The notes under the pieces were generated by a model, which worked only from the letters and a program-made list of their open reading frames with translations, was not told the DNA's origin and searched no databases. Below, in pieces: positions 21,210-35,544 of a stretch of 64,000 bases of DNA (its first letter is position 1; every line of letters starts with the position of its first letter). The stretch is from a virus, in the IMG/VR virus record IMGVR_UViG_3300032291_003063, positions 5,963-69,962 of that record, one strand, 5' to 3'. Position numbers and translations under genes: made by a program.

Positions 21210-22108
21210 ACACGCCTCACAATTCGGGGAATAATCTCTCCGGACCGAATTACCTCGACTTTGCACCCAAGCTCTAGACCCAGCGCATTGATATACGCAA
21301 TGTTATGAAGAGTGGCTCTTGAAACAAGGGCGTCTCCAACAAGAACGGGCTCTAGAATAGCCGTGGGGGCTACTACACCAGACCGGCCTACATTCCACTC
21401 TACATCAAGCAAAGTAGTAATAGAACCACTAGTCTGCTCTTTGAGAGCGTAGGCACCGCGAGGATGCTTAGCGGTATAACCTAGAGACTCGAAATCGCTC
21501 TGATTATTGATACGAATAACTAGCCCGTCAGACGGAAAGATATCGAGGTCTTGACAGAGCACCGTAGTAAAGCCAACGCTTTCTAGAAACTCCATAGACT
21601 CGGTGTAACTTGCTGTGGTTGGATTAAGGCCATAAGCAATAAAGTATAGTTCTCGCTGTAGAAACTCATCGGTACTCTTAAGATTAAGAGCACCCGCGGC
21701 GTAGTTACGAGAGTTTTTTATCTGCTTCGGCGCTACCACTTCTCCGACGACCTGAAATGTTCCCGAGCTTAGCTCAGGAACGAGACACCGCATCTTATCG
21801 GTAATGACCAGGCCTTCTTTACCATTGCCGCGAGTAGCAGCAACAGTAAGTTCGCCATCGACAAACTCTAGAGACACGGCTGCTCCGTCCAACTTAACAG
21901 TTGTGACAAGATCACCAGTATAATTAGCAAGGGGGTTTTCGTCGTTATAAGCTTTTTGAAGAGACCACATAGGGTACTTGTGGGAGTGCTTTTCTCCCTC
22001 TACCGCATATCCGATAACATCGTAGTTATCTGAGATTGCGTCGAACTCCTCATCAGTGAGAATTGGAGCACCTTCATAATAGGCTTTACTGGCTTGTTCT
22101 AAAATCAT
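21206..22108 (-). CDS. NAD-dependent DNA ligase subunit A
   Basis: YYEG, KLDG, TRGNG, DGLV, RATLHN. Confidence 0.92.
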   Translation of the reverse strand: MILEQASKAYYEGAPILTDEEFDAISDNYDVIGYAVEGEKHSHKYPMWSLQKAYNDENPLANYTGDLVTTVKLDGAAVSLEFVDGELTVAATRGNGKEGLVITDKMRCLVPELSSGTFQVVGEVVAPKQIKNSRNYAAGALNLKSTDEFLQRELYFIAYGLNPTTASYTESMEFLESVGFTTVLCQDLDIFPSDGLVIRINNQSDFESLGYTAKHPRGAYALKEQTSGSITTLLDVEWNVGRSGVVAPTAILEPVLVGDALVSRATLHNIAYINALGLELGCKVEVIRSGEIIPRIVRRV

Positions 22109-22145
22109 AATATATGATACCCCATAAAACCTTAAAAGTCAAGAA

Positions 22146-22445
22146 TTATTGAAACGTAAGTTTAATTAAATCTTCAAAGTGGGAAACTATAATATCTCTA
22201 CTTTCTGCTAGAGATAGAATTTCTACTAAACCCGCAAATAGTTCTCTAGAGTTTTCTAGGTCTATAGGCATAGCAACCCCTTCACTACTTGGCTTCCATG
22301 ACTCATCAAAATCTTGGTAGTACTTTCTTAGGTGTAGGTATTCTACTCCACGAAAAGTATTAACAGTAAGACGTATTTGATGGTCTTTTACTGGATCATA
22401 GTGTATAATTCGTTCATATGCTGTAGGAGCTTCATGGATTTCCAC
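22146..22445 (-). CDS. PC4/p15-like ssDNA-binding protein
   Basis: FRGVEYLHLRKYY...WKPSSEG; T5 synteny. Confidence 0.75.
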   Translation of the reverse strand: MEIHEAPTAYERIIHYDPVKDHQIRLTVNTFRGVEYLHLRKYYQDFDESWKPSSEGVAMPIDLENSRELFAGLVEILSLAESRDIIVSHFEDLIKLTFQ

Positions 22446-22722
22446 GGTTACTCCTGTCTAAGCTACGTTGCAAAGCTACTGATAGTGGCTCTACCTTCTG
22501 CACGTTAGCTACTTTAATTAATCGGTAAGAATCAGTATCCCAGCAAAATAGTAGGATTGTATCTTCTGACTCTTTAGCTCTATTTTGCTTGGATGCGATG
22601 TACGGCGTGGAAAAATCTAGGGTGCATACATTGTACTTTAGCTTCTGTGATTCAGCGCTTCTATAGTCAATAATACAGTCCCCATGCTCCAGCAATACTG
22701 CTCGCAAATCTTCTTTTCTCAA
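22432..22722 (-). CDS. Conserved T5-like hypothetical protein
   Basis: YNVCTLDF..YI and FCWDTDSYR motifs. Confidence 0.55.
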   Translation of the reverse strand: MRKEDLRAVLLEHGDCIIDYRSAESQKLKYNVCTLDFSTPYIASKQNRAKESEDTILLFCWDTDSYRLIKVANVQKVEPLSVALQRSLDRSNRGNP

Positions 22723-22821
22723 AGTGTTACTCCTTATCAGTAGGTTGGCAAACCTCTTTGCTCCTTACATGCTTCGGATACACTAATGCCCGCTCAGCCA
22801 AAGACTGAGCGGGCGATTAAC

Positions 22822-23259
22822 TTACTTGCTAGAAATGACTTCTGCAAGGTAGAGCGCGGCCTTACCAGTCAGCTTAGAAACAACTTCTTCGTTGACTTCC
22901 GCTCCAATACCAGTAATTGCTGCCCGAAGCTTTTCAAAGGCAGCTTCCTTACTGACGCGAGCGCCCGCACCTTCGGCCTTGGGGGCCTTAGACGATCCGG
23001 CTGCGGCAGACTTAGCGATATATACGCCAGCCTTAGTAAGGATCATACGAACGCCGTTGGGGCTTTCGTCTAGGTCGTCTGCAATTTCCTTAACAATTTC
23101 TACAGAAGTCTCAGCAGTAGGGTTTGCATCTTGATACATATCTACAGCGCGCTTCTTCTTGTTATCGTCCCATGCCATTCGCTTTTTCTTTCCTTTTCCA
23201 ATGTAACCTGGGCAGGTACCCAGTGTTTTAATTTGCTCTTGATAAAAACGGTCGCCCAT
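22822..23259 (-). CDS. D3-like DNA-binding protein
   Basis: SPNGVRMILTKAGVY and KLTGKAA match recalled T5 D3. Confidence 0.8.
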   Translation of the reverse strand: MGDRFYQEQIKTLGTCPGYIGKGKKKRMAWDDNKKKRAVDMYQDANPTAETSVEIVKEIADDLDESPNGVRMILTKAGVYIAKSAAAGSSKAPKAEGAGARVSKEAAFEKLRAAITGIGAEVNEEVVSKLTGKAALYLAEVISSK

Positions 23260-23314
23260 TAGTACCTCTCCGATGAAAAGATATAATACTATAAGTGACC
23301 GAAAAAGTCAAGAA

Positions 23315-23764
23315 CTATATTTTTTTACCCCTAGCTAAATGGTCAGCGCAGTGTGCCGCAGCAAATGCAAAGGGTTTGATTCTAGTTTCAACATAAGGAA
23401 GCGCGCTCTTAACATAAGATAAAGCCTCCTTTACGGCAACATTAGACTTGTGCCGAGGGTTTTGGTTTAAGTCAAGGTGAATTTCTAGGTGTCGAGTGTC
23501 AATCGAGTCTAGCAGTTCTAGCGCCACATTGACCGTATTCATAACTTCGGTTAATAGTCGCTGTTTCATATTACCATAGTCCGGTAATACTACAGTTTCG
23601 TAGAATAACTGACACCCTTTGTTAGAGTCTACGTGAAGCACTACCACCGTAGAGTACCTGGCGTACCAGCGGTTTTGCTTCTTAAATCTTACAGAATCGC
23701 ATCCAATATAAACAGAGCTTTCTTTGGAGCTTTGTTCAATGGCTTTCTTGGCTAGTTCTAACAT
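23315..23764 (-). CDS. RNase H-like YkuK-family protein
   Basis: YIGCDS, EIHLDLN, AAHCAD. Confidence 0.75.
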   Translation of the reverse strand: MLELAKKAIEQSSKESSVYIGCDSVRFKKQNRWYARYSTVVVLHVDSNKGCQLFYETVVLPDYGNMKQRLLTEVMNTVNVALELLDSIDTRHLEIHLDLNQNPRHKSNVAVKEALSYVKSALPYVETRIKPFAFAAAHCADHLARGKKI

Positions 23765-23799
23765 GATTTTTCCTATAAAAATAGCCCCAAAATGGGGCT

Positions 23800-25087
23800 A
23801 ATAAGTACCTACCCTGAGATTACGGGAGGTAAATGATGAGCCTTAAGTGCCTTATGGTTTAGCACCTTATCCAGTGAAGTTATATCACTATCTCATCAGA
23901 GCCGCACAATTTATATAGCGCAGGCTATAGCGCTTTAACACTTAGATACTCGACTAGCTCTACCACCACCTGTCTCCCGACAGTTCAAAGCCGCTAAGCT
24001 CTTATGATGTGCCTTCTAATCAACACTCTTTGGCTTTCGGCCTAGGAATGACTCCATTCTTTAGTGGAGTATTTGGCTCCTTACTCTAAGTGTAGGACAA
24101 GGCTTTTGATTTTTAAACGATTAGCCGAAGCATTTCTTTTTTCCAATAAAAAGCGTCTTGTGATAGACTATAATCTGCACTTAGGACACGCTCGTCCAGT
24201 AGCTTTCAGCTCTTTTGAAGCCAAAAATGCTACGCGCCCTGAATATCGTTCGGTTTTGCATCCCTACTAGAATGTTTGATGGCTCGATGTGCTATTGCCC
24301 ACCAACCCACTAAACTGGTACCCGCCCTAACCTGCTAAGCTCGGACTGAAGTACACTCGACAAGAACACTATATACCCTCAACTTATTGCAATCCATAAT
24401 TTGACCTTGCGGAGTCAAAAATCATAATCTGCCCGAGTATGACTGTCTGGTAAGCTATTGGGCTTTTACCCTCCTAAGAGAGCAGGGAGTTATTAGCTCC
24501 ACGCCTTGTCTGCGTGCTTAACCCTCTTACGAGGTCGAAACAGTTAGTGCAACCGTTTCTGTCACTGTATCACTACAGCTTTCGCCGCACGCGGCAATTA
24601 GACTTTTTAAGGCACAACGGAGAATTGTGACCAAAGAAGCCTAATTAATTAGGAACTTCCCGCAAGTAGTTTTCTATTCGCTGATACCGGATATAAAGAG
24701 CCGGCCGAGTCGAACAATAAAGAGTTACCACCAGCGTTTTCCTACTAACCGGAACTGGGGAAGAGCTCATCTAAGCATACTTACTAGAACAGTAGGTTCA
24801 TTAGCCAAACTGGTCGTTAGTGTGTAGAAATACTTTTACAAGCAGTTGCTAAACCACGGTAATGTGCCTTTGGCGGGATACCGGTCTTGGAAAGCCTATT
24901 GTTTTTCATCTACTTCAATAGTGGAGTAGTTTACTGTGGTCAAGTCCCGGATAAAGGCCTTACAGAGCCGGGGGTATATTACACAAGGTCCGCTTATGCA
25001 ATTCGCGGGCGAGCTACTCTAAATAGGTATTTATTAGATTTGCCTATTTATTACCGAGAGATTGGCTTTGCAGTCCTCACTCTCAAT
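23800..25087 (-). ncRNA. Candidate giant structured ncRNA (GOLLD/ROOL-class-like), about 1.3 kb
   Basis: Own sigma70 promoter and downstream hairpin terminator, no minus-strand ORF of 60 aa or more, many GNRA-capped hairpins. Confidence 0.7.
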
Positions 25088-25089
25088 AT

Positions 25090-25256
25090 AAGTATTATAT
25101 CCGATATTTCGGAAAAGTCAAGAACTTTTTTAGCTGTACCTCACGTATTCGGTACGAATGAATTCTAGAATTGCGACGACTTCGAGAGCCGGTTGGAAGT
25201 CGTATCCAGATCTTCAAGTATTATATCCGATATTTCGGAAAAGTCAAGAACTTTTT
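25090..25256 (-). promoter_or_regulatory. Two identical ~40-bp promoters (TTGACT-17-TATAAT) flanking a small structured spacer
   Basis: aagtattatatccgatatttcggaaaagtcaagaacttttt occurs at about 25090 and 25216. Confidence 0.85.
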
Positions 25257-25551
25257 AAAATTGAATTGGAATGATACTAAGAGTACCACCTGCTGAGTTC
25301 TGAATTACTGCAACAAAACTATTCATAGGAATCCTAATATTTAGTTTTTCGTTCGCTGCCATAGGCATTGAACCTGCTCCGTTAGTAGCCACAACAGTAG
25401 AATTACCTACTCGAATAAAACAAGCTGTGCTAGAGACTACTTGAATTTCCTCAAAAGGAATAGCTGTAGATCGAGCACTAGTCGCTCCAACTGTTAGAAC
25501 TTGTGCAGTACTAAAGTCATACTGGCGTGTATTATGTTCGAGATTACTCAT
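25255..25551 (-). CDS. Hypothetical beta-rich protein
   Basis: ORF with GGAG RBS before ATG 25551. Confidence 0.55.
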   Translation of the reverse strand: MSNLEHNTRQYDFSTAQVLTVGATSARSTAIPFEEIQVVSSTACFIRVGNSTVVATNGAGSMPMAANEKLNIRIPMNSFVAVIQNSAGGTLSIIPIQF

Positions 25552-25590
25552 TTTTGTCTCCATAAATCTTGAGACAAATGTCTCGTTAAT

Positions 25591-25667
25591 TGGTCGGGCA
25601 TGTAAGATTCAAACTTACGACCCTCGCATCCCAAATGCGATGCTCTATCAAGCTGAGCTAATGCCCG
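25591..25667 (-). tRNA. tRNA-Pro(TGG)
   Basis: Cloverleaf with encoded CCA. Confidence 0.9.
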
Positions 25668-25674
25668 TAATTAT

Positions 25675-25749
25675 TGGCACTCCCTGAAGGAATCGAACCC
25701 TCATCAACAGGGTAGAAACCTGATGCTCTTTCCATTGAGCTAAGGGAGC
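25675..25749 (-). tRNA. tRNA-Arg(TCT)
   Basis: Cloverleaf with CCA. Confidence 0.88.
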
Positions 25750-25750
25750 G

Positions 25751-25774
25751 TGGTATGCCGAGAGGGACTCGAAC
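25751..25774 (-). pseudogene. 3' fragment of a disrupted tRNA (T loop, acceptor strand, ACCA)
   Basis: gttcgagtccctc-tcggcat-acca; pairs with the 5' fragment at 26461-26486. Confidence 0.8.
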
Positions 25775-25779
25775 TTACC

Positions 25780-25854
25780 TGGTAGGCACGGCTGGAATTG
25801 AACCAGCATTAAATCAGTTATGAGCTGATGACTTTACCATTAAGTTACGCGCCT
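25780..25854 (-). tRNA. tRNA with CAT anticodon (elongator Met or Ile2)
   Basis: Cloverleaf atcag-ctCATaa-ctgat with CCA; 5' end overlaps the HNH stop codon. Confidence 0.85.
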
Positions 25855-26404
25855 AAAATCTATTGCTTTTACTTAGGTTATCTTTTTTAGCTAAATACTG
25901 TAAATTTTCCAAAACATGTAGCCCAGATACATTCTTCCCATTTAATGGTACTACATGATCCACTTGCATACCCTCTGGGCAGTTTCTATAAAATTCCTTA
26001 ATAGCCTCTAAGTTAGCCCAAGATACTGTTTTTAATTCTATAGAAGCTCGATACTCAGCTGATCTTGCTGGCTGCGTTTTCTTTGTTTGTGCATACTGGC
26101 AATTTTTACATTGACTATTTATACCCTGCCTGTTGGCTTGGTTTTTATGGAAATTATCAAAAGATATTACATTGTCGCACCCTGCGCAATATCTATCGTT
26201 GAATATTTCTGGTATGAATACTCTTAAATGCACACCCTTTGGTTTTCCTGGAAAATACTTACTAGTAAAAGAAGAGTAGGTACTTGCACTCCAAGAGTGT
26301 GCTCTGTACCCGTTAATTATAGCGCCAACGACACTTTTTTCTAAATATGTTGTTGGTACTGATAATTGTTCTAATTTTGATATAATATACTCTTCTAGTT
26401 TCAT
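25853..26404 (-). CDS. HNH homing endonuclease
   Basis: CAGC/CKNC, VDHVVPL..VSGLHVLENLQ..N; own promoter TTTACA-17-TATAAT, leaderless. Confidence 0.88.
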   Translation of the reverse strand: MKLEEYIISKLEQLSVPTTYLEKSVVGAIINGYRAHSWSASTYSSFTSKYFPGKPKGVHLRVFIPEIFNDRYCAGCDNVISFDNFHKNQANRQGINSQCKNCQYAQTKKTQPARSAEYRASIELKTVSWANLEAIKEFYRNCPEGMQVDHVVPLNGKNVSGLHVLENLQYLAKKDNLSKSNRF

Positions 26405-26460
26405 AAATATATTATACCAAGGTTAGAGTAGCTTGTAAAGAAAAATTTTTATAAATGGTT

Positions 26461-26486
26461 GGCTCTGACCGTTGAGCTACCGGCAT
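26461..26486 (-). pseudogene. 5' fragment of a disrupted tRNA (acceptor strand and D arm)
   Basis: atgccgg-ta-gctcaacggtcagagc. Confidence 0.8.
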
Positions 26487-26606
26487 AAAATTGGGAGTCG
26501 CTAGGTGGATCGAATAATTTCCGTCCGGCCCTGGCCGATTTTACGGCTCACGCTTCCGACTATATCCCATTGAAGGGCCTAGTTAGAGCAATCGCTCCGT
26601 TTTTAA

Positions 26607-26682
26607 TGGCTGGGGAGGTAGGGCTCGAACCTACTACCTTCTGATTCAAAGTCAGATGTTCAACCAGTTAAACTGCTCCCCA
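26607..26682 (-). tRNA. tRNA-Gln(TTG)
   Basis: Cloverleaf with CCA. Confidence 0.88.
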
Positions 26683-26683
26683 A

Positions 26684-26766
26684 TGGTGGGAAGCGGTGGT
26701 TACGCTCCACTCCCGCTAAGATGGGTTTTACAGACCCACTGCTGAAACTATCAGCTTTCACTTCCC
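26684..26766 (-). tRNA. tRNA-Tyr(GTA), atypical D and T loops
   Basis: tgggt-ctGTAaa-accca, CCA; T loop reads AGCGTAA. Confidence 0.75.
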
Positions 26767-26774
26767 ATAAACAA

Positions 26775-27227
26775 TGGCAAGGGCCGAGGCCTTCCCCGGC
26801 CCTCGAACGGCCAGCACGCTGACCGCGGGTAGTACTGCTATACTCCCTTTCGGGAAACGGACACCATAAAGGGCCGCAAGTACTACAGGCCGGAACCTGT
26901 AGGGGGCCGCAAGTAAACTTGGAGCGCGAATTGTTAGACGGTTAAAGCTCTTTCATCACCGTAAGTTTTATAACACAGAGCACTTTGGTCAGTCATTAAA
27001 TCGCCGTTCGTCAGACTGACAATTGAGAACGAGCGAAGCAAGAGCTGAGTCTGACTCGCGAGGCGGCGATTCAGCCCTGCCCCTCACGCCCGAAGCCGTG
27101 AGGGGGGTTATTTAAAAGGACGTGCCCGAAGACACGTCCCAACCAATCCGATCCGGGACTTTTGGCCCCGCGCGCTCGTTTGGTTATCCGAACCCTTGCG
27201 GGCCGGGAATTTCCGCTGCAGTGGCGC
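26775..27227 (-). ncRNA. Candidate structured ncRNA(s), about 450 nt
   Basis: No ORF; GC-rich hairpins with UUCG/GCAA/GAAA loops; ends in GCCA. Confidence 0.6.
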
Positions 27228-27301
27228 TGGAGCTGGCTAGGGGAATCGAACCCCTGTCGTCAGGTTGGAAGCCTGTAATAATACCATTATACTAAACCAG
27301 C
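27228..27301 (-). tRNA. tRNA-Gly(TCC)
   Basis: Cloverleaf with CCA. Confidence 0.88.
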
Positions 27302-27483
27302 AAATCTTTAAATACGTACTTAGGGTACTCTACCTTATTAGTCAGTGGAGACTCCTTAATCATAGCATAAACCACATCGGTAGGAGCTGCTTCAATCAAA
27401 CGAATAGCATCAGCAGCCGTTAAGTTCTTCTCAACAACGCTGCCTACTTGCTCTAGTCGAACAACTGTGTATTTATCAATCAA
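27292..27483 (-). CDS. Small hypothetical protein (leaderless, TTG start)
   Basis: ORF begins just downstream of TTGACT-17-TATAAT. Confidence 0.45.
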   Translation of the reverse strand: MIDKYTVVRLEQVGSVVEKNLTAADAIRLIEAAPTDVVYAMIKESPLTNKVEYPKYVFKDLLV

Positions 27484-27522
27484 GTATTATACTCCAAATT
27501 TTGAAAAAGTCAAGAACTTTTT

Positions 27523-27607
27523 TGGCGGAAGGTATGGGAATCGAACCCATTCTACTTATAGTAGTACAGATTAGCAATCTGCTGCATTACCGGCCTGCCC
27601 ACCTTCC
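27523..27607 (-). tRNA. tRNA-Ser(GCT)
   Basis: Long variable arm, CCA. Confidence 0.9.
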
Positions 27608-27679
27608 GTACCCAAGAAAAGAATCGAACTTTTATGTGCGCATCCACAATGCGCTGCTTTACCATTAAGCTACTCAGGC
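27608..27679 (-). tRNA. tRNA-His(GTG), A73, no G-1, incomplete CCA
   Basis: gcgca-ttGTGga-tgcgc. Confidence 0.8.
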
Positions 27680-27680
27680 A

Positions 27681-27756
27681 TGGCACTTCGGGAAAGACTC
27701 AAACTCTCATCTCTACGTTCGTAGCGTAGTGTTCTATTCTATTGAACTACCGAAGC
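27681..27756 (-). tRNA. tRNA-Arg(ACG)
   Basis: Cloverleaf with CCA. Confidence 0.88.
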
Positions 27757-27759
27757 ATC

Positions 27760-27835
27760 TGGAGGGCCTAATGGGATTTGAACCCAAAGCGAGGTGATTA
27801 AAAGTCACCTGCCATTCCCAGATGGCCCTAGGCCC
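27760..27835 (-). tRNA. tRNA-Lys(TTT)
   Basis: Cloverleaf with CCA. Confidence 0.85.
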
Positions 27836-27839
27836 GTAT

Positions 27840-27931
27840 TGGTTGTCCTACCCGGACTTGAACCGGGATCGTGCAGTCATCTACTGCTCATGCCTTATAA
27901 GGACACCGCTCTACCATTGAGCTATAGGACG
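27840..27931 (-). tRNA. tRNA with TAT anticodon (nominally Ile) and a long variable arm
   Basis: gtgtc-ctTATaa-ggcat; V-arm gcagt-agatg-actgc; CCA. Confidence 0.8.
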
Positions 27932-27935
27932 TTGT

Positions 27936-28011
27936 TGGTGCATTCCCGGGGAATTGAACCCCAACCTCATGCTTTTCAGACACATGTGCCGACCACGTAC
28001 ACCAGAAATGC
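27936..28011 (-). tRNA. tRNA-Phe(GAA)
   Basis: Cloverleaf with CCA. Confidence 0.85.
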
Positions 28012-28016
28012 GTAAA

Positions 28017-28070
28017 ATAGGGGCCAAGATTCGAACTTGGATAGTGCACTAGCGTCCCTTACGCCCCCTA
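28017..28070 (-). ncRNA. Mini tRNA-like element (acceptor stem plus T arm, no canonical anticodon arm)
   Basis: tagggg...ccaag-ttcgaat-cttgg-ccccta. Confidence 0.55.
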
Positions 28071-28073
28071 AAT

Positions 28074-28149
28074 TGGCGAACCTAACGGGAGTTGAACCCG
28101 CACAAACTAAATCGACAGTTTAGTGCTCTACCAGTTAAGCTATAGGTCC
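28074..28149 (-). tRNA. tRNA-Asp(GTC)
   Basis: Cloverleaf with CCA. Confidence 0.88.
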
Positions 28150-28278
28150 ATTGTTTAGGAAGATACATAAAATACCATTGATTGTTGGAGCAATCAGTTT
28201 CGCCCTCCTCCAAGAGGACCGACGCTATTCTAGCACGCTCGAAGTGAGTAGCGCCGTCTTATGTACCTACGTAAACAA

Positions 28279-28353
28279 TGGAGGGTGATCTCGGGATTGA
28301 ACCGAGGACACACGGATTAAGAGCCCGTTGCTCTACCTCTGAGCTAATCACCC
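28279..28353 (-). tRNA. tRNA-Lys(CTT)
   Basis: Cloverleaf with CCA. Confidence 0.9.
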
Positions 28354-28354
28354 C

Positions 28355-28431
28355 TGGAACACGCAATGGGACTCGAACCCATATCTACACATTGAAAGTG
28401 TGTTATCCTAGGCCAGCTAGACGATGCGTGC
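28355..28431 (-). tRNA. tRNA-Glu(TTC)
   Basis: Cloverleaf with CCA. Confidence 0.88.
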
Positions 28432-28432
28432 T

Positions 28433-28507
28433 TGGTGATAGGGGGTGGAGTCGAACCAACACAGCCCGGCGTATGAGACCGATGCACTACCGTTATGCTA
28501 CCCTATC
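28433..28507 (-). tRNA. tRNA-Met(CAT)
   Basis: tcggt-ctCATac-gccgg, CCA. Confidence 0.8.
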
Positions 28508-28509
28508 AT

Positions 28510-28587
28510 TGGAGTTGCGGGAGGGATTCGAACCCCCGGTTTTAGGGATTTGCAGTCCCTTGCATTGGGCCACTCTGCCACCGCAAC
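28510..28587 (-). tRNA. tRNA-Cys(GCA)
   Basis: Cloverleaf, U73, CCA. Confidence 0.9.
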
Positions 28588-28588
28588 A

Positions 28589-28663
28589 TGGTAGTTTCAC
28601 CAAGAATCGAACTTGGATCTAACGATTATCAGTCGTTTGCACTAGCCATTGTGCTATGAAACC
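28589..28663 (-). tRNA. tRNA-Ile(GAT)
   Basis: Cloverleaf with CCA. Confidence 0.9.
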
Positions 28664-28679
28664 ATACATCCAGCACCAA

Positions 28680-28871
28680 TTAGTCACCTCCTAGGCGGTG
28701 CTGGATTTCATTAATTCGTTGGTTAAAATACTTGAGCACATCTTCTAGTGCCCACCGCTCGTCATCAGCTAGATTGTTATCTGTCTGATTATCATAGTCA
28801 GCTTGCAAAAGCTGAGTAATTTTAAAAGCAATCTGCGCTCGTTCGTGAACAAAGACGTTTAGAGTTACCAT
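28680..28871 (-). CDS. Hypothetical protein
   Basis: ORF co-oriented with the tRNA array. Confidence 0.5.
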   Translation of the reverse strand: MVTLNVFVHERAQIAFKITQLLQADYDNQTDNNLADDERWALEDVLKYFNQRINEIQHRLGGD

Positions 28872-28873
28872 GT

Positions 28874-29104
28874 CTACGCTACTGATTGTGAATTCCCCTT
28901 ATGGGTATAAATACCATTGACAAGAAAACCAAGTAATCTTAGGTCTCTATGATTTTTAAATACCTGAGACTTTAGCGGTCCCCTCAAACGAGCGTATGCT
29001 TTGTCGAAGTCTACAACTTCCTCATCCCAATAGCCATAGAAATACTTAAGTCTATGGTTGGTATGCTCTCTAAGCAATGCGTTTTTCTCAATTTGAGAAT
29101 CCAT
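28874..29104 (-). CDS. Hypothetical protein
   Basis: ORF directly downstream of TTGACT-17-TATAAT. Confidence 0.45.
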   Translation of the reverse strand: MDSQIEKNALLREHTNHRLKYFYGYWDEEVVDFDKAYARLRGPLKSQVFKNHRDLRLLGFLVNGIYTHKGNSQSVA

Positions 29105-29138
29105 TATACTTTACTTTCCGAAAAAGTCAAGAACTATT

Positions 29139-29228
29139 TGGAGGAAGGCTGGTAGTGTCGATCTCCATACCGGTTAAAGTACCACCTGTTTTCAAGACAG
29201 GGCTGAGGGCCGCCTCAGTTAACCTTCC
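29139..29228 (-). tRNA. tRNA-Ser(TGA), atypical D and T arms
   Basis: cctgt-ctTGAaa-acagg, long V arm, CCA. Confidence 0.7.
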
Positions 29229-29364
29229 ATATTTAGTGTGGAACAGTCCCCGCTGCTCTGTATTACTGTTTGGTCACTGGGGTTTCATAGAGGTCGCGCC
29301 CGCATTCCAGGGTGGCCGACGTCGATCAGCCTCTATCTCTTCACTATCCAAACAAACCACAAAT

Positions 29365-29439
29365 TGGCACAAGTGGTAGGAATTGAACCTACTTCTCAAG
29401 GTTTTGGAGACCCGCGGATTTCCGTTTTCCTTCACTTGT
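29365..29439 (-). tRNA. tRNA-Trp(CCA)
   Basis: Cloverleaf with CCA. Confidence 0.82.
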
Positions 29440-29440
29440 A

Positions 29441-29515
29441 TGGCTGGCTAGGTAGGAATCGAACCTACAACCACTCGGTTAACAGCCGAGAGCTCTACCG
29501 TTAAGCTACTAACCA
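29441..29515 (-). tRNA. tRNA-Asn(GTT)
   Basis: Cloverleaf with CCA. Confidence 0.9.
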
Positions 29516-29522
29516 AAAAACT

Positions 29523-29604
29523 TGGTGCGGGTGAGAGGATTCGAACCTCCACGGTCGCCCGCCAGATTCTAAGTCTGGTGCGTCTACCATTTCGCCACAC
29601 CCGC
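29523..29604 (-). tRNA. tRNA-Leu(TAG)
   Basis: Cloverleaf with V arm, CCA. Confidence 0.92.
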
Positions 29605-29880
29605 ATAATATATATTTACTCGCCGTAACTTGTATCTCATATAAAGTTACTGATACTAACTGAATTAGTACTGCTACAGACATCGGACTCGATAGCTCGG
29701 ATTGAGAATAAAGACTATCTTTAGGGTCACTGTACACACACGAGTAAAACTGTAAGGGGTAGTATATTTATATGTAACTGCGCCCCAAACCTCGCGCTAT
29801 GTTACTAGCCAAGCCTATAGCTTGTCTCCCTCAAGAAAAAACATACTACCACATTAGAGCATGAAAGTCAAGAACTTTTT

Positions 29881-29956
29881 TGGTGGAGACTGCCGGGATC
29901 GAACCGGCCGCCTTCTGCGTGCAAAGCAGACGCTCTACCAAATGAGCTAAATCCCC
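29881..29956 (-). tRNA. tRNA-Ala(TGC)
   Basis: G3:U70 acceptor pair, CCA. Confidence 0.92.
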
Positions 29957-30092
29957 ATATCAGGAACTGGATACTTAGGCTTTCGTGAGGGGGCAGGCAT
30001 AAACCTAACCTGCCTCCGCCTCTTAAAAGCCTTCTTGTCTTCTAGAATTGTGGTAAAGACATAAATACCAGAGTTAGTAAAACTAATGTAAG

Positions 30093-30326
30093 TCACTTCT
30101 TCCAATTTCCCCAGTATTCATTGGCACGAACACGGATAAACGGCTTATTCTTTGCAGTCGTAGGAACAGTAAGCCAAGGATTTTGACCGTTGCGCCAAGC
30201 GTCAATCTTGTTGCCTAGAACAGATACCGTAGACCGCTCGGCACGAAGCGCTTGCCTCATTCCGTTGGTCATAGCCGAGTGAATCCCAGCAGACTTATAC
30301 TTCTTCCTTGTTCTCTTCTTACCCAT
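30093..30326 (-). CDS. Small basic hypothetical protein
   Basis: Strong AAGGAGA RBS. Confidence 0.6.
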   Translation of the reverse strand: MGKKRTRKKYKSAGIHSAMTNGMRQALRAERSTVSVLGNKIDAWRNGQNPWLTVPTTAKNKPFIRVRANEYWGNWKK

Positions 30327-30336
30327 CAGTCTCTCC

Positions 30337-30492
30337 TTACGAAATTGAGTCTTGTATTTTTACTATACCAAAAACAGTTAGTGCATATAGTAATATCATT
30401 GGTATTACTATAGGAAAAGTATAAATAAAATACCCTAGACAAACTACAAAGGGCGAAACACAAGCTAGTCCAATTAAAAGATTCTTATTCAT
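30337..30492 (-). CDS. Small membrane protein
   Basis: GGAG RBS before ATG 30492; two hydrophobic segments. Confidence 0.5.
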   Translation of the reverse strand: MNKNLLIGLACVSPFVVCLGYFIYTFPIVIPMILLYALTVFGIVKIQDSIS

Positions 30493-30507
30493 TTTTGCTC
30501 CAAAAAG

Positions 30508-30582
30508 TGGTACCCGAAGACGGGATCGAACCGCCGACATTCTCGGTGTAAACGAGACGCTCTACCTCTGAGCTATTCGGGC
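30508..30582 (-). tRNA. tRNA-Val(TAC)
   Basis: Cloverleaf with CCA. Confidence 0.92.
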
Positions 30583-30781
30583 ATTTCAAGAAATATACTC
30601 AGGACCCTTATACTACATGACCTGTGCCAAGTTGGTTCCCCGCTACGCCAAATCTCCAAGTTCAATCTCGGGATATTATTTTCTATTCGTCAAAATAGAG
30701 CGCGGTAGTCTTTTCGTTACCTAAATCTTGTTGACGCAAGTTTAAGCACTAGAGTATATTTCTAAAAATGCCATAAAAAAT

Positions 30782-30863
30782 TGGTACGGGCAGCCGGGGT
30801 CGAACCGGCACTCCTAAGAAGCGGATTTTAAGTCCGCCGCGTCTGCCTTTCCGCCATGCCCGC
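30782..30863 (-). tRNA. tRNA-Leu(TAA)
   Basis: Cloverleaf with V arm, CCA. Confidence 0.9.
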
Positions 30864-31061
30864 TTAATATGCTTTAAACCAGTCAATCACTTCACTAATA
30901 GAATTAAGAAAATAAGCTTTCTGCCTCGTTTCTTCTGCTGGGTTAAAAGACCAGATTGCAGTATTTTCCTCAATAACCATTCTTCGCGCATTACGAAGGG
31001 CCTGCAGGACGATCTGGTCCGTAATATCGTCGTTGATTTCAATTTGCATTTTGTTCCCCAT
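30864..31061 (-). CDS. Hypothetical protein
   Basis: Co-oriented ORF. Confidence 0.45.
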   Translation of the reverse strand: MGNKMQIEINDDITDQIVLQALRNARRMVIEENTAIWSFNPAEETRQKAYFLNSISEVIDWFKAY

Positions 31062-31350
31062 TTACAGGCGTCCAACCAAGGTAAGCACTAGCCAAAATCC
31101 ACAAGTATCCTTCGGCAAGAGCCGCATCATAACCCGCTTGGTAGCCTTCTGCTCGGTAGCGAATGGCGGGGCTATAGTCTGCATGGCCGGCATCAATTCC
31201 GGCTTGCGAGTAAATTCTATGAAGATGCGGGTCTTGGCTTCTAGCCCACACATAGGCGGGAGTTTCTACTGGATTATAACAATATTGCAACATCGCTCGA
31301 CTCCCTTATTGTCTAAATATTATAGGGGAGCCGGGCGCAAAAGTCAAGAA

Positions 31351-31718
31351 CTAAATTTCTTCAATTAGACCATATTCTCGGTCAAGAAATTTCCAGGACA
31401 CATTGGTCGGCTCAAGACACTCCAGCTCGCTAAAGATAAGAGACTTATCAAAGTGCCCACAGGTGTATACGTCAAGCTGCATAAGTCCGGTTTCTTCCCA
31501 GAAGTGCACCGCAATGTGTGAAGTCTCGATAATGACCACACCAGTGCACCCAATGTTGCCCTCTACGTTGTCAACGCGAGCAACGTGTGGTCCGCTAAGA
31601 ATTCGCATTCCGATAACATTTACCAGATGACGAAGCCACTCCTTAACCCACGCCGGGTTGTCGGGGCAGTAGCCGAGTTCGGCTCGAACAATAAGATGCT
31701 TATGAACTAAGTTTGTCA
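31351..31718 (-). CDS. speD: S-adenosylmethionine decarboxylase proenzyme (start uncertain)
   Basis: KHLIV, GCTGVVIIETSHIAVH, QLDVYTC. Confidence 0.85.
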
Positions 31719-32392
31719 AGTTTGATTCCATATTCTTGAAGGTGAGTGAGTTTACCAAGATCGTATGCGTAGGCGTAGGCAAAATGCCCACCAGTCTGAA
31801 TACCCGCAAAACGGGGCGGAACATCTTCCATTCGTTCCGTTACAAAAACTCTATAACAAGGAGTTTCATAGTTCCCGGAAATACCGGGATTTTTAGCTAG
31901 ATAGGCCTCGTCTAGCACAGCCTCAATTCGGCAAGGTGCATGGTACTTTGCAGACCAAGCAATTTCACCCTTCTCAAATGAGTCCGAAATACAATTATCA
32001 GGAAGAAGGGACTTTCTAAAGCGTTCGTCTCCAGTGGGACGACGAGGAACACCAATACGCTCCAGAATGTGACTAACAAATGCTCCGCCTCTGTACAGAC
32101 GCTGAGCAATTTCTGTGACACCTTCTCCGGCCAGATAAAGCTCAATAATGCTTTGAATCTCGGTCGGGTCCGCAGGCTTACCACGGTTCTTTTCACGACG
32201 CATAGCCTCATAGGCCTTTTCGGCCTTATGTTCCTCGATAATTCTAGCCAGTCGAGAAGGGTTCTCGTTGATGTTTAGAATTCCATAGGCTTCCTTCTTG
32301 GTGATCGGCTTTGGGCCTTCGAGCAGTTTAATAACGTGCTCGATATTAGCTTTCGTCAGCTTTTCGTGTGCTTGTACCTTGATCTTTTTCAA
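31700..32392 (-). CDS. T5 D2-like protein
   Basis: VIKLLE..TKKEA..LNI, IELYLAGE..EIAQRLYR and LTHLQEYGI match recalled T5 D2. Confidence 0.7.
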   Translation of the reverse strand: MKKIKVQAHEKLTKANIEHVIKLLEGPKPITKKEAYGILNINENPSRLARIIEEHKAEKAYEAMRREKNRGKPADPTEIQSIIELYLAGEGVTEIAQRLYRGGAFVSHILERIGVPRRPTGDERFRKSLLPDNCISDSFEKGEIAWSAKYHAPCRIEAVLDEAYLAKNPGISGNYETPCYRVFVTERMEDVPPRFAGIQTGGHFAYAYAYDLGKLTHLQEYGIKLDKLSS

Positions 32393-32861
32393 GTTTATCT
32401 TCCAATTTAAACATCAAACAGCAAATAGCGTGCGCTAGTGTATCAATATGCGACTCTTCATCGACTGCATTTTGATCAATCATATGATCGGCAATATGCC
32501 TAAGAGCAGCAGCGGTATACCGCGCTTGAAGATCACTGACTCGTTTCCAGTTACCAGGAGCATACTTTGAGGCCCCAAAACTTAGCACCTTAGCAACCTC
32601 AACTAAAGCACGCGGAGGCAGTAAATCCATGCGAGGCTTTTCGGAATCATACTTAACCCCTGCAACGCCTCCGGAACCTCCCCCGCCCACATACCCGGGC
32701 GTAGCCTGGGCAGGGCCTGTAATCCCAGAATTACTATGCACTGGCAAGGTTTGGGCGTTCAGATAGCCGGCCCACAATCGCTCTGCGTTCATGCCCAGGC
32801 GGTCGCAGGCCGCCCGCACGTCTGCTGGTATTGGTTGTACTACTTGTATCATTGCCACCAC
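32346..32861 (-). CDS. dATP/dGTP diphosphohydrolase-domain (DUF5664-like) protein
   Basis: GVKYDSEKPRMDLLPP, FGASKYAPGNW, AALRH, LAHAICC. Confidence 0.75.
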   Translation of the reverse strand: MVAMIQVVQPIPADVRAACDRLGMNAERLWAGYLNAQTLPVHSNSGITGPAQATPGYVGGGGSGGVAGVKYDSEKPRMDLLPPRALVEVAKVLSFGASKYAPGNWKRVSDLQARYTAAALRHIADHMIDQNAVDEESHIDTLAHAICCLMFKLEDKLEKDQGTSTRKADES

Positions 32862-33310
32862 ACTACTAGGGACTCTCTGATCCCGGTTAATACAGGTTGA
32901 ACTCTATGCTCAACATTAGGAAAGAATACGGCACGCCCAGCTCTCTTTTTCAGATGCGAGTCCCGAAACTCTAGTCTACCACCAGTAAAATTATCATTGA
33001 GTAATAGAGAGCAGGACATAAGCCGTCCATCTGTGTGCCACCCGTAAAAGTCCCCTGGGTGGTACGTAGAGAGCTGTATATGGTCATTGATACGGAGAAC
33101 ACGATCAATGCCAAGTTGGGCCTGTGATTGGCGGCCGTATTCTTGCATAATCCTGAACACATTCGGAAACTCGTCACGCTTGATAAAGCGTACTTCGCCT
33201 CTTCGAAGGTCTGGAATTTCAACTGGCTTGCCGTCCTTTAGGACGGCAGCACGTTGCGGTTGGATTTTATCCTTAAGGGCTAGAAAGTCCCGATACTCCG
33301 GAATATTCAT
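32849..33310 (-). CDS. 2OG-Fe(II) oxygenase
   Basis: YGWHTD, FTGGRL, EHRVQPVLTGIRESLV. Confidence 0.85.
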   Translation of the reverse strand: MNIPEYRDFLALKDKIQPQRAAVLKDGKPVEIPDLRRGEVRFIKRDEFPNVFRIMQEYGRQSQAQLGIDRVLRINDHIQLSTYHPGDFYGWHTDGRLMSCSLLLNDNFTGGRLEFRDSHLKKRAGRAVFFPNVEHRVQPVLTGIRESLVVWWQ

Positions 33311-33864
33311 CTACTGATCCTTCCATTTTGAGCCTCCACTAGTGAATCGTCCCACCAGAAAGGCTTGTCTCGGTACTTCCAAGTTGCAAAGGGACCTTTG
33401 TCTAGCATATAGAACAATCTATACGAGGCAATGTGATCATCGGACTTAAGTTCGTCTGGCATAGCCTGTGCAAATGGAGTAAGCCCGAGCCGCGGAATAT
33501 TGGGCTCGGGAAGACGATTTACCACTTCCAGGGATTTGTGAGACTTGCCACCATAACGATAGCCATACTCAGAATTAAGGGCATTAGCATAGCAATGAAG
33601 CCACTCGAAGTTGTCTAGACTAGCACGTGCCCAGATGGCACAAGGATGGTTGTAGTGAGTAATGCCGTAGAAATCTTTGGTGATAAGCTCTTGCGTCTGC
33701 TTTTTTTCGTCTGGAGTAATCTTGCGAGGAAAAAAACCTACTTGACTAATCCAGTGTGCAGAGCAAAGAAGCTGTGCGGCTTCTAGTGGCATCTTGACAA
33801 TATGCTTGTCGATGTGATACTCTGCACAGGTATCGAAATCTTCGTCTAGTACAAAAATATTCAT
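33307..33864 (-). CDS. Pyrimidine-dimer DNA glycosylase-like (DenV family)
   Basis: MNIFVLD..DKHIVKMPLE.AQLL, HYNHPC, FAQAMPD. Confidence 0.8.
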   Translation of the reverse strand: MNIFVLDEDFDTCAEYHIDKHIVKMPLEAAQLLCSAHWISQVGFFPRKITPDEKKQTQELITKDFYGITHYNHPCAIWARASLDNFEWLHCYANALNSEYGYRYGGKSHKSLEVVNRLPEPNIPRLGLTPFAQAMPDELKSDDHIASYRLFYMLDKGPFATWKYRDKPFWWDDSLVEAQNGRISR

Positions 33865-33934
33865 AATGTATTATACATCAAAAGCTGAAAATGTCAAGGA
33901 ATAAAATAGGGCTCCCTATGCGGAAGCCCTAATA

Positions 33935-34010
33935 TGGTGCTGGTTGCAGGAATCGAACCCACGGCATCCACGTTACAAAGGTGGCGCTCTACCTACTGAG
34001 CTAAACCAGC
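33935..34010 (-). tRNA. tRNA-Thr(TGT)
   Basis: Cloverleaf with CCA. Confidence 0.88.
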
Positions 34011-35144: not shown

Positions 35145-35488
35145 AAATAGCCCTTAGCCGGGAAGGCTAAGGGCTTGCACTTCTGTTTCGAGGCGTGCCC
35201 GCCCAAGAGAATTAAGCCGCTAGGGCTAATTCTACAAATGCTTCGTTATCGTTAGCATTTATAAGTTTGAACTGATTAGCGGTCGTTTCTTACCGTGTTC
35301 TCCACTATCCTATATGCCAGTCGAAATCTGGTCGCCCCCATCAAATACACCTAGGCCCGAAATCTGGCTATCCATGATCCCTTAGTCTTTCACGTTACCG
35401 CATGGCGCACGCCTAGATGTATATGGTGGAGGCGGGGAGAATTGCACTCCCGTCCTGAACACTTTACTTTCGTATCACCGAACAGTCA
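35145..35488 (-). ncRNA. ssrA: Two-piece (circularly permuted) tmRNA, tag ANDNEAFVELALAA
   Basis: A segment ending ctccACCA (35424) precedes an intervening hairpin and the gggggcg 5' arm (35339). Tag reading frame 35256-35212 follows taaat. Upstream promoter and downstream terminator. Confidence 0.92.
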
Positions 35489-35544
35489 TAAGTATAGCAC
35501 AATATGACCAAAAGTCAAGAACTATTTTTCAAATAGTTATACGT

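What the first reader, a model, noticed from the sequence alone, without database searches (positions are those of the whole stretch)
23800..25087. ~1.3 kb ornate non-coding RNA downstream of the tRNA array
Seen: a near-consensus promoter at about 25093-25121 fires leftward across 1.3 kb with no minus-strand ORF of 60 aa or more, ending at a hairpin (23781-23800). Minus-strand hairpins are repeatedly GNRA-capped: cc-GCAA-gg at ~24405, cctc-GTAA-gagg at ~24525, ctgtc-GGGA-gacag at ~23975, and GAAA loops at ~24035 and ~24203. A long-range helix pairs acacttaga (23938) with tctaagtgt (24085). The 3' end reads GUAAUCUCAGGGUAGG. Knowledge: GOLLD and ROOL giant RNAs occur beside tRNAs in phages, are typically about 600-900 nt and have no known function. 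Inference: this is an unusually long GOLLD-like RNA or a new giant-RNA class.
Basis: partly seen in the sequence, partly recalled or inferred. Interest (0 to 1): 0.82.

Follow-up and report, generated by a model that had tools for sequence, protein, structure and literature searches.

The report
Ordinary GOLLD RNA with extra leader
The 1.3 kb gene-free stretch is a normal-sized GOLLD RNA (a known phage RNA that builds hollow RNA cages) joined behind one promoter to a 478-base, highly conserved, abundantly transcribed RNA module of unknown kind.

Summary
A near-consensus promoter (25121-25094, minus strand) is followed by about 1.3 kb with no conserved ORF, ending at a terminator (23800-23782).

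The 3' 432 nt (24242-23811) pass Rfam's GOLLD model (174.6 bits against a cut-off of 150). Two covariance models built here from 8-9 other GOLLD loci place the family's usual 5' domain at 24609-24243. They also find it in a cultured Vibrio phage used as a positive control. The GOLLD RNA proper is therefore 24609-23811, 799 nt, which is ordinary size (786-873 nt in nine comparators). It is not unusually long.

The remaining 478 nt (25087-24610, "module A") are extra:
- no Rfam family matches them;
- ten other GOLLD loci have no counterpart;
- only one homologue was found, a related IMG/VR phage (L002);
- they are 86% identical to that homologue, against 63% for GOLLD itself;
- all 21 varying predicted pairs stay paired.

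Metatranscriptome contigs from two studies cover the locus. In one study both parts have mean depth 82-136, against 3-7 on flanking genes. One RNA contig, 23815-24589, carries adapter letters at both ends. This hints that GOLLD is released from the primary transcript.

Verdict: known family, new architectural variant, moderate interest.

The parts
25220..25247 (-). Upstream copy of the promoter (TTGACT-16-TATAAT). It is part of an exact 41-nt duplication, 25256-25216 = 25130-25090. The relative L002 lacks this copy.
25131..25215 (-). 85-nt insert between the two promoter copies. It contains a hairpin whose loop shows the motif CCGGCUCU. L002 lacks the insert. RNA contigs over it have only low depth (3.6-4.9).
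25094..25121 (-). Proximal sigma-70-type promoter, 11 of 12 to consensus, conserved in position in L002. The inferred start of transcription is near 25087.
24610..25087 (-). Module A: 478 nt with no conserved ORF and no Rfam match. It is 85.9% identical to L002 (385 of 448 aligned positions), including a 76-nt identical block. RNAalifold predicts 127-138 pairs, with 8 double and 13 one-sided compatible changes and none broken.
24243..24609 (-). Canonical GOLLD 5' domain, 367 nt. Model R2 matches 24609-24497 (24.8 bits, E 8.7e-6). Model R1 matches 24433-24243 (14.1 bits, E 0.0011) and abuts the Rfam match.
23811..24242 (-). GOLLD 3' domain (Rfam RF02032, full model 1-416, 174.6 bits against cut-off 150). 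It includes the variable linker at about 24183-24095, which holds no tRNA here.
23937..24094 (-). Conserved long-range helix of the GOLLD 3' domain: 24094-24085 paired with 23946-23937.
23782..23800 (-). Intrinsic terminator hairpin followed by a T-run. It is 19 of 19 identical in L002.
23315..23764 (-). Downstream gene for an RNase H-like protein (PF04308). It sits in the same position in L002. It is context, not part of the RNA.

Best explanation
The locus is one transcription unit in the tRNA island of a distant T5-like (Demerecviridae-like) freshwater phage. A strong sigma-70-type promoter (25121-25094) drives a primary transcript of about 1.3 kb that ends at the terminator 23800-23782. 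Its 3' 799 nt (24609-23811) are a canonical GOLLD RNA of ordinary size, with a 367-nt 5' domain and a 432-nt 3' domain.

By family membership (inferred, not tested here) this RNA should assemble into an RNA-only, multi-copy hollow cage, as solved for GOLLD env-38 (14 copies) and the S. agalactiae GOLLD (12 copies).

The first 478 nt (25087-24610, module A) are a lineage-specific, non-coding, probably structured RNA module. It is under stronger sequence constraint than GOLLD itself.

The more likely fate, at roughly even odds, is that the primary transcript is cut near 24600. This would give a mature GOLLD of about 0.8 kb and a separate stable A RNA of about 0.4-0.5 kb. Otherwise A stays attached as a 5' appendage of each cage subunit. 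What A does is not shown. My working guess is a partner or passenger of the cage, by analogy with the tRNAs that many GOLLD genes carry in their internal linker.
For: GOLLD membership:
- Rfam RF02032 scores 174.6 bits against a cut-off of 150, over the full model, E 2.3e-47. It is the only GOLLD in the 69,962-b record.

Canonical 5' domain:
- Model R1 was built from 9 other loci. A search of the whole window plus L002 gave only two matches. Both abut the Rfam start: window 24433-24243 (E 0.0011) and L002 3344-3553 (E 9.4e-10).
- Model R2 was built from 8 other loci and run with filters off. It matches window 24609-24497 (24.8 bits, E 8.7e-6) and L002 3203-3311 (E 0.015).
- Positive control outside the training set: in Vibrio phage 70E37.1, R2, R1 and Rfam lie head to tail (21.9 bits, 41.2 bits, 176.4 bits).

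Size:
- The window's GOLLD is 799 nt. Nine comparators measure 786-873 nt.

One transcription unit:
- No promoter of the phage's own type lies upstream of 24609.
- No minus-strand terminator lies between 25094 and 23800.
- L002 has the same promoter-A-GOLLD-terminator order.

Module A is non-coding:
- Its ORFs are 30-41 aa on the minus strand.
- Their L002 counterparts are cut by stops or frameshifts, while two real flanking genes align end to end.
- Indels are 1, 1, 1, 4 and 26 nt.

Module A is constrained:
- Identity to L002 is 85.9%, against 62.6% for GOLLD.
- 100%-identical stretches lie beside hairpin tips at 38-75% identity.
- All 21 varying predicted pairs remain standard pairs, 8 of them changed on both sides. 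Slid controls give 0-1.

Module A is extra:
- No Rfam family matches it.
- A profile of the window+L002 5' region found nothing at E below 0.38 in 94 loci totalling 584 kb.
- At least six of the nine comparators I looked at leave no room for such a module upstream of the GOLLD start. In L056 an ORF ends 8 nt upstream of it. L041, L096 and L068 have a terminator-like hairpin within 75 nt. L062 has a promoter about 60 nt upstream. The Vibrio phage has a gene 143 nt upstream.

RNA evidence (contigs only):
- In RNA libraries X4 and X6, contigs cover 23815-24589 and 24709-25050 (X4), and 23837-24567 and 24687-24956 (X6). Their mean word depth is 82-136.
- Contigs on the flanking genes have depth 3-7.
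- The DNA run of the same study is flat at 14-17 across 22074-25119.
- A second study (X7) has an RNA contig at 23900-24514.

Processing hint:
- The X4 contig 23815-24589 carries adapter letters at both ends (tables 7 and 8).
- It therefore matches the canonical GOLLD short of about 20 nt at the 5' end and 4 nt at the 3' end.
Against: - Module A rests on two sequences only. The structure counted was predicted from the same alignment, so the count leans towards it.
- A test with a structure from the window alone was weak. It gave 15 of 29 double changes kept, against about 40% in slid controls. That is no better than the same test gives for the proven 3' domain.
- Folding energies do not separate RNA from coding sequence: z = -1.84 (A), -1.86, -1.85, against -1.76 for a coding control.
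- High identity of A could partly reflect a recent exchange between the two phages. Identity drops sharply at about 24555, which is 55 nt inside GOLLD and not at the A/GOLLD border.
- Contigs cannot show ends, strand or level of an RNA (statement).
- The adapter-marked end 24589 lies inside the 5' strand of the first long-range GOLLD helix (24592-24587 with 24517-24512). It may be a reverse-transcription or library effect rather than a true end.
- R1's match in the window is modest (14.1 bits), and its first ~90 model positions align poorly.
- R2 was missed with default filters.
- Cage formation is inferred from family membership alone.
Confidence: 0.68

Rival explanations
1. A single mature RNA of about 1.28 kb. 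Module A stays covalently attached to GOLLD and forms an extra domain of the particle, on the cap or inside the cage. This would be an enlarged GOLLD variant, possibly with a different copy number.
For: - One promoter and one terminator serve the unit, and the same order is conserved in L002.
- A and GOLLD contigs have similar depth within each of X4 and X6: 125 against 114, and 136 against 82.
- High conservation runs across the A/GOLLD border to about 24555.
- Published structures show that the 5' domain sets the copy number: 12 copies for the 700-nt S. agalactiae GOLLD and 14 for the 833-nt env-38 (PMC12990946, passages read).
Against: - No RNA contig in the three RNA runs joins A to GOLLD (table 8).
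- One contig ends with adapter letters at 24589 (table 7).
- In the consensus prediction A folds on itself, with no pairs to the GOLLD 5' domain.
Confidence: 0.3
2. Module A is only a long 5' leader or a conserved DNA-level element, such as a regulatory or replication-related site, with no function of its own as RNA. It is transcribed merely because it lies behind the promoter.
For: - Only two sequences are known.
- Thermodynamic z-scores are no different from coding sequence.
- No homologue was found elsewhere.
- Conservation could come from DNA-binding sites or from recent exchange between the phages.
Against: - RNA contigs over A are as deep as those over GOLLD and about 20-40 times deeper than those over flanking genes in X4 and X6. 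A discarded leader would be expected to decay.
- All 21 varying predicted pairs keep pairing, and the changes cluster in hairpin tips.
Confidence: 0.15
3. The upstream 478 nt encode one or more small proteins.
For: Small ORFs exist: 41, 35 and 30 aa on the minus strand and 93 aa on the plus strand.
Against: - None is kept intact in L002. The 93-aa frame has 4 stops and a frame change. The 41-aa and 30-aa frames lose their starts or are split. Two control genes align over 149 of 149 and 98 of 102 residues.
- Indels are not multiples of three.
Confidence: 0.03

Closest known systems
GOLLD RNA (Rfam RF02032), e.g. env-38 (833 nt, 14-copy cage) and S. agalactiae GOLLD (700 nt, 12-copy cage)
   Same: - The full 3' domain scores above Rfam's cut-off.
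- The canonical 5' domain is found by models R1 and R2.
- It has a variable linker.
- It lies in a phage tRNA island.
- It is 799 nt long.
- Published sizes and cage forms come from passages read.
   Different: - It is preceded in the same transcription unit by a 478-nt conserved non-coding module. That module is absent from ten other GOLLD loci examined here.
- The linker holds no tRNA.
- Assembly into a cage was not tested.
GOLLD of Vibrio phage 70E37.1 (MW824425.1, Demerecviridae), annotated ncRNA 67803-68223
   Same: - The phage type is the same: large terminase 50.6% identical.
- GOLLD lies in the tRNA array.
- R2, R1 and the Rfam match are contiguous, about 827 nt in all.
   Different: - The next upstream gene ends 143 nt before the GOLLD start, so there is no room for an A-like module.
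- blastn found no DNA similarity to the window's locus.
GOLLD genes with a tRNA embedded in the linker (L056, L068, L096, L079, L085, L083 here; Mycolicibacterium GOLLD in the literature)
   Same: A GOLLD RNA is physically joined to another structured RNA in one transcript (literature passage).
   Different: There the passenger is a tRNA inside the internal linker. Here it is a 478-nt module of unknown kind at the 5' end.
ROOL RNA (Rfam RF03087; accession and name recalled, not from a call)
   Same: It is a large ornate phage-associated RNA near tRNAs that also forms cages.
   Different: No Rfam family other than GOLLD matched 23300-25600 at E up to 1, and none matched module A alone at E below 7.

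Membership tests
GOLLD (RF02032) | Match to the curated covariance model at or above the gathering score | tested here: met
   174.6 bits against 150, model positions 1-416 of 416, window 24242-23811 minus strand
GOLLD (RF02032) | Conserved long-range helix of the 3' domain and the terminal hairpin with loop GUAAUCUCA | tested here: met
   24094-24085 pairs with 23946-23937, 9 of 10 standard pairs. The terminal loop is at 23823-23815.
GOLLD (RF02032) | The family's less conserved 5' domain lies directly upstream of the 3' domain | tested here: met
   R2 matches 24609-24497 (E 8.7e-6, filters off, 951-nt search). R1 matches 24433-24243 (E 0.0011, search of window plus L002). The same order is seen in L002 and in a phage outside the training set. 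R2 was missed with default filters.
GOLLD (RF02032) | Phage or prophage location, usually beside or within tRNA genes | tested here: met
   23 minus-strand tRNA genes lie at 25591-34010, directly upstream. Phage genes are identified. The record is an IMG/VR virus record.
GOLLD (RF02032) | Overall length of about 700-870 nt | tested here: met
   799 nt (24609-23811). Comparators measure 786-873 nt. Published examples are 700 and 833 nt.
GOLLD (RF02032) | Self-assembly into an RNA-only multi-copy cage | not testable with these tools
   Inferred from family membership only (papers read).
GOLLD (RF02032) | Abundant expression, rising during phage lytic growth | tested here: inconclusive
   RNA-library contigs cover the locus in 3 runs of 2 studies. 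Depth is 82-136, against 3-7 on flanking genes, in X4 and X6. These are contigs only, with no time course and no strand.
ROOL and other large ornate RNAs in Rfam | Match to the family model | tested here: not met
   No family other than GOLLD matched at E of 1 or less in 23300-25600. Module A alone gave only one chance-level match, on the opposite strand, E 7.2.

The most novel reading that the evidence does not exclude
Module A (25087-24610) is a new class of structured phage RNA of about 0.45-0.5 kb that works together with GOLLD. It is made from the same transcript. It would either be released as an abundant RNA that the cage binds or encloses, or be kept as a 5' appendage that changes the size or openness of the cage. 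This would be the first natural candidate for a GOLLD partner or cargo other than tRNA.
Probability: 0.3. Interest if true: 0.7.

Novelty: new variant of a known kind. Interest (0 to 1): 0.45.

Why it matters
GOLLD cages were solved in 2025, but their function and contents are unknown. The papers read here propose that they enclose their own linker, tRNAs or other molecules.

This locus gives three useful things:
- Field evidence that a GOLLD gene of an uncultured freshwater T5-like phage is represented by deep contigs in metatranscriptomes.
- Two working covariance models for the GOLLD 5' domain, which Rfam's model does not cover. These let the full extent of GOLLD genes be marked.
- A lineage in which GOLLD is transcriptionally fused to a 478-nt RNA module that is more conserved than GOLLD itself. 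This module is a concrete partner to test in vitro, for co-assembly, copy number and cryo-EM.

If A proves inert, the finding is simply one more GOLLD gene.

Tried and rejected
- No RNA contig covers 24590-24708 in X4 or 24568-24686 in X6, although the DNA run X2 runs through.
- X7 has an RNA contig over 23900-24514 but none over module A.
- I considered these as signs of an excised spacer or of separate A and GOLLD molecules. Contigs cannot show this.

**Searches for more homologues of module A**
- Exact or degenerate patterns in viral contigs found only L002's contig or chance hits. L058-L060 have no flanking similarity.
- Two scans of genome contigs found nothing.
- blastn against 50,697 phage records found nothing.
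- A DNA-polymerase anchor gave one contig that lacks the region.

**Anchor on the RNase H-like neighbour**
- 47 metagenome loci were found and 37 were scanned with Rfam.
- The 10 left out were L012, L013, L018, L023, L035, L039, L040, L044, L047 and L049. They duplicate scanned loci or have under 230 nt upstream.
- GOLLD above the cut-off was found in 1 of 37 (L041), in a different position.
- L032 holds a truncated 3' half.
- L055 was a chance pattern hit.

**Sequence-only tests of the 5' domain**
- nhmmer profiles from 2 or 9 canonical loci found nothing in the window.
- Pairwise alignment z-scores were not convincing: 0.4-3.5, with a coding control at 2.2.
- One local match of A to L056 (z 3.9) needs many gaps, and I did not trust it.
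- Only the covariance models gave clear answers.

**Other dead ends**
- The MAFFT-based consensus fold of four 5' regions was too poorly aligned to use.
- Thermodynamic z-scores were uninformative.
- Intermolecular pairing between A and GOLLD by duplexfold was no better than shuffles: 96 of 100 shuffles scored as low.
- An internal promoter was considered. A -10-like TCTAAT lies at 24602-24597, but it lacks a -35 element and the key A at position 2, and the scan does not call it. It remains unresolved.
- RNAalifold's closing helix for A (about 25007-24997 with 24593-24584) conflicts with the canonical GOLLD helix in the R2 alignment. I give the canonical one priority.

**Tools and papers not available**
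- The genome search could not reach the metagenome loci.
- Weinberg 2009 and Morgado 2020 are not held.
- Supplementary alignments of the cryo-EM paper are closed. They may hold GOLLD variants with 5' extensions.
- A paper search for GOLLD with T5-like, Demerecviridae, freshwater or metatranscriptome terms listed nothing on GOLLD.

Full report
**What is there**

The window is part of an IMG/VR virus record of 69,962 b, about 67% complete. Its genes are DNA polymerase, ribonucleotide reductase, an SbcC-like nuclease, DnaB-like helicase, large terminase, portal and a protease-capsid fusion. The large terminase is 50.6% identical to that of 113-kb Vibrio phages of the Demerecviridae. Together these mark a distant T5-like phage.

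ARAGORN finds 24 tRNA genes. Of these, 23 are on the minus strand between 25591 and 34010. The finding lies directly downstream of that array on the same strand.

**Checking the observation**

- The promoter is real as a pattern: TTGACT-16-TATAAT at 25121-25094, 11 of 12.
- It belongs to a family that the phage uses widely. There are 18 matches to TTGAC-N17-TATAAT with at most one mismatch, against 1.46 expected.
- It is duplicated exactly: 41 nt, 25256-25216 = 25130-25090. An 85-nt insert lies between the copies, and the relative L002 lacks it.
- The only minus-strand terminator-like site is 23800-23782.
- Minus-strand ORFs between the promoter and the terminator are 41, 35 and 30 aa.
The fifth, near 24203, is stem rather than loop in the Rfam alignment.

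**Family**

Rfam's GOLLD model matches 24242-23811 on the minus strand over its full length, at 174.6 bits against a cut-off of 150. No other family matches 23300-25600 at E of 1 or less.

Rfam's model covers only the conserved 3' part of GOLLD. In the solved env-38 RNA, the 5' domain is residues 1-420 of 833. So the question became what the 845 nt between the promoter and the Rfam match are.

**Relatives**

The downstream RNase H-like gene (PF04308) served as an anchor and led to L002. This is an IMG/VR contig with the same layout: one promoter, a homologous upstream region, a GOLLD 3' domain (158.3 bits), the same terminator and the same gene.

The same anchor in metagenomes gave 47 loci. 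Of the 37 scanned, only L041 holds a GOLLD above the cut-off, and it sits elsewhere in the locus.

A pattern from the 3' domain found L056. A pattern shared by the L041 and L056 5' regions gave 39 stretches. A profile kept 7 of them, and all 7 carry an Rfam GOLLD 3' domain abutting the profile match.

These nine loci share a clearly alignable 5' domain.

**Where GOLLD starts in the window**

Sequence-only methods did not connect the window to that 5' domain. Covariance models did.

- R1 models the last 236 positions and was built from 9 loci. Searched over the whole window and L002, it gave exactly two matches. Both end where the Rfam match begins: window 24433-24243 (14.1 bits, E 0.0011) and L002 3344-3553 (31.4 bits, E 9.4e-10).
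- R2 models the first 115 positions and was built from 8 loci. It found nothing with default filters.
- With filters off on 24200-25150, R2 matched 24609-24497 at 24.8 bits (E 8.7e-6). The next best match was at 3.4 bits.
- The homologous place in L002 was also R2's best match there (12.1 bits, E 0.015).

As a control outside the training set I used Vibrio phage 70E37.1. R2 (21.9 bits), R1 (41.2 bits) and Rfam (176.4 bits) lie head to tail there over about 827 nt.

The window's GOLLD is therefore 24609-23811, 799 nt. Measured the same way, the comparators are:

| Locus | Length (nt) |
|---|---|
| L062 | 786 |
| L071 | about 799 |
| Vibrio phage 70E37.1 | 827 |
| L056 | 832 |
| L068 | 856 |
| L083 | 861 |
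| L096 | 862 |
| L085 | 863 |
| L041 | 873 |

Published examples are 700 and 833 nt. The GOLLD here is ordinary in size.

**The extra module**

That leaves 25087-24610, 478 nt, here called module A.

It has no Rfam match. The profile of the 5' region finds nothing in 94 loci totalling 584 kb.

In at least six of the nine other GOLLD loci I looked at, there is no room for such a module:
- In L056 an ORF ends 8 nt upstream of the GOLLD start.
- In L041, L096 and L068 a terminator-like hairpin lies within 75 nt.
- In L062 a promoter lies about 60 nt upstream.
- In the Vibrio phage a gene ends 143 nt upstream.

A is not coding. Its small ORFs are broken in L002, while the two flanking genes align end to end. 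Its indels are 1, 1, 1, 4 and 26 nt.

A is the best conserved part of the locus:
- 385 of 448 aligned positions are identical (85.9%), against 466 of 745 (62.6%) for GOLLD.
- A 76-nt identical block lies beside hairpin tips that have diverged as far as GOLLD has.
- That patchwork argues for selection rather than only a recent exchange. However, the sharp drop in identity at about 24555, which is 55 nt inside GOLLD, leaves room for recombination.

In the consensus fold, 138 pairs are predicted. Of these, 21 vary and all 21 stay standard pairs, 8 through changes on both sides. Slid controls give 0-1 (the fold of A alone is). This count is biased, because the structure came from the same two sequences. 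An unbiased version was weak, and folding energies say nothing.

**Is it RNA?**

Seventeen public runs from 8 studies hold words of the stretch, and six of the runs are RNA libraries. I laid three RNA runs and one DNA run on 22000-27500.

- The organism is present. DNA run X2 gives a 3,046-nt contig with 34 differences. The RNA contigs have 4-10 differences each.
- RNA contigs cover 23815-24589 and 24709-25050 (X4), 23837-24567 and 24687-24956 (X6), and 23900-24514 (X7, a second study).
- In X4 and X6 their mean word depths are 82-136, against 3-7 for contigs on the flanking genes. X2, from the same study, is flat at 14-17.
- The tool warns that contig depth is a poor measure of expression. 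I take this only as good evidence that both A and GOLLD are present as abundant RNA in those samples.
- Contigs over the upstream promoter copy and the insert are shallow (3.6-4.9). This fits the proximal promoter being the main one.

**One RNA or two?**

For a single unit:
- There is one promoter of the phage's type, no terminator in between, and the same order in L002.

For separation after transcription:
- The X4 contig 23815-24589 has adapter letters at both ends, and another contig has them at 25050 (table 7). Such ends arise when many fragments stop at one place.
- 23815 and 24589 fall 4 nt and 20 nt inside the GOLLD limits derived independently from the models.
- Losing the outermost bases of an RNA is usual in such libraries. 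That statement is my knowledge, not a call.

Against this reading:
- 24589 lies inside the 5' strand of the first long-range GOLLD helix, so it may be a reverse-transcription stop.

I put processing at about even odds. The stretches without RNA contigs are listed only under what was tried.

**How it most likely works**

Shown:
- family membership;
- the architecture;
- conservation;
- presence in RNA libraries.

Inferred from the family: the 799-nt RNA assembles into an RNA-only cage, with the 3' domains forming the ring and the 5' domains the caps.

Speculative: A is a partner or passenger. The basis is that six of the nine canonical comparator loci carry a tRNA inside the GOLLD linker. The window, L002, L041, L062, L071 and the Vibrio phage do not. 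The published proposal is that cages enclose such RNAs. A test for direct A-GOLLD pairing was uninformative.

**Novelty**

GOLLD is known. Its variable 5' region, its tRNA neighbourhood and its embedded tRNAs are all in print. GenBank already annotates a GOLLD in a cultured T5-like Vibrio phage.

What I did not find in print is a conserved 5' module fused to a canonical GOLLD. The searches were made, together with the passages read in three papers. Two key papers and all supplements could not be read.

I rate this a new variant of a known kind, of moderate interest.

Noticed in passing
window 35170-35522 (-): The phage carries a permuted (two-piece) tmRNA gene: Rfam tmRNA_permuted 121.1 bits and alpha_tmRNA 80.4 bits. 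A promoter of the phage's type lies at 35518-35491. Similar tmRNA genes turned up in three unrelated phage-like metagenome loci (L050, L053, L043).
   Followed up: partly
window 25853-26404 (-), with 25774-26457: A 183-aa ORF with an HNH-like C-terminal motif sits inside the tRNA array. In DNA run X2 one contig skips 25775-26456 and has 22 other letters in its place. A near-identical strain therefore lacks this ORF, which fits a mobile homing-endonuclease insertion.
   Followed up: partly
window 25256-25090 (-): There is an exact 41-nt promoter duplication around an 85-nt insert that L002 lacks. The motif CCGGCUCU occurs three times on this strand: at 25192 in a hairpin loop of the insert, and at 24971 and 24704 in two similar hairpins of module A. 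A loose end in X2 at 25131 suggests another strain has a tRNA gene directly upstream of the proximal promoter.
   Followed up: partly
L056 8445-8521; L068 2941-3013; L096 6409-6476; L079 824-897; L085 3975-4046; L083 411-485: Six of nine canonical GOLLD loci from IMG/VR and metagenomes have a tRNA gene inside the GOLLD linker. The window's GOLLD has none.
   Followed up: partly
MW824425.1 68374-68568 (+), locus L101 2375-2569: In Vibrio phage 70E37.1 an annotated 'hypothetical protein' on the opposite strand overlaps the GOLLD 5' domain found by models R1 and R2 (68224-68629). The record's GOLLD feature covers only the Rfam 3' part. The CDS is probably a mis-call.
   Followed up: no
loci L008-L054 and window 23315-23764: The RNase H-like gene (PF04308) recurs in phage tRNA islands. 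Most of the 37 metagenome loci scanned have tRNA genes on one or both sides of it. Only the window and L002 have a GOLLD directly upstream of it.
   Followed up: partly
window 27104-27187: RNA and DNA contigs of one study (X2, X4, X6) all skip 82 nt here and carry 6 other letters instead. This is a strain-level indel in the tRNA array, just upstream of tRNA-Gly (27228-27301).
   Followed up: no
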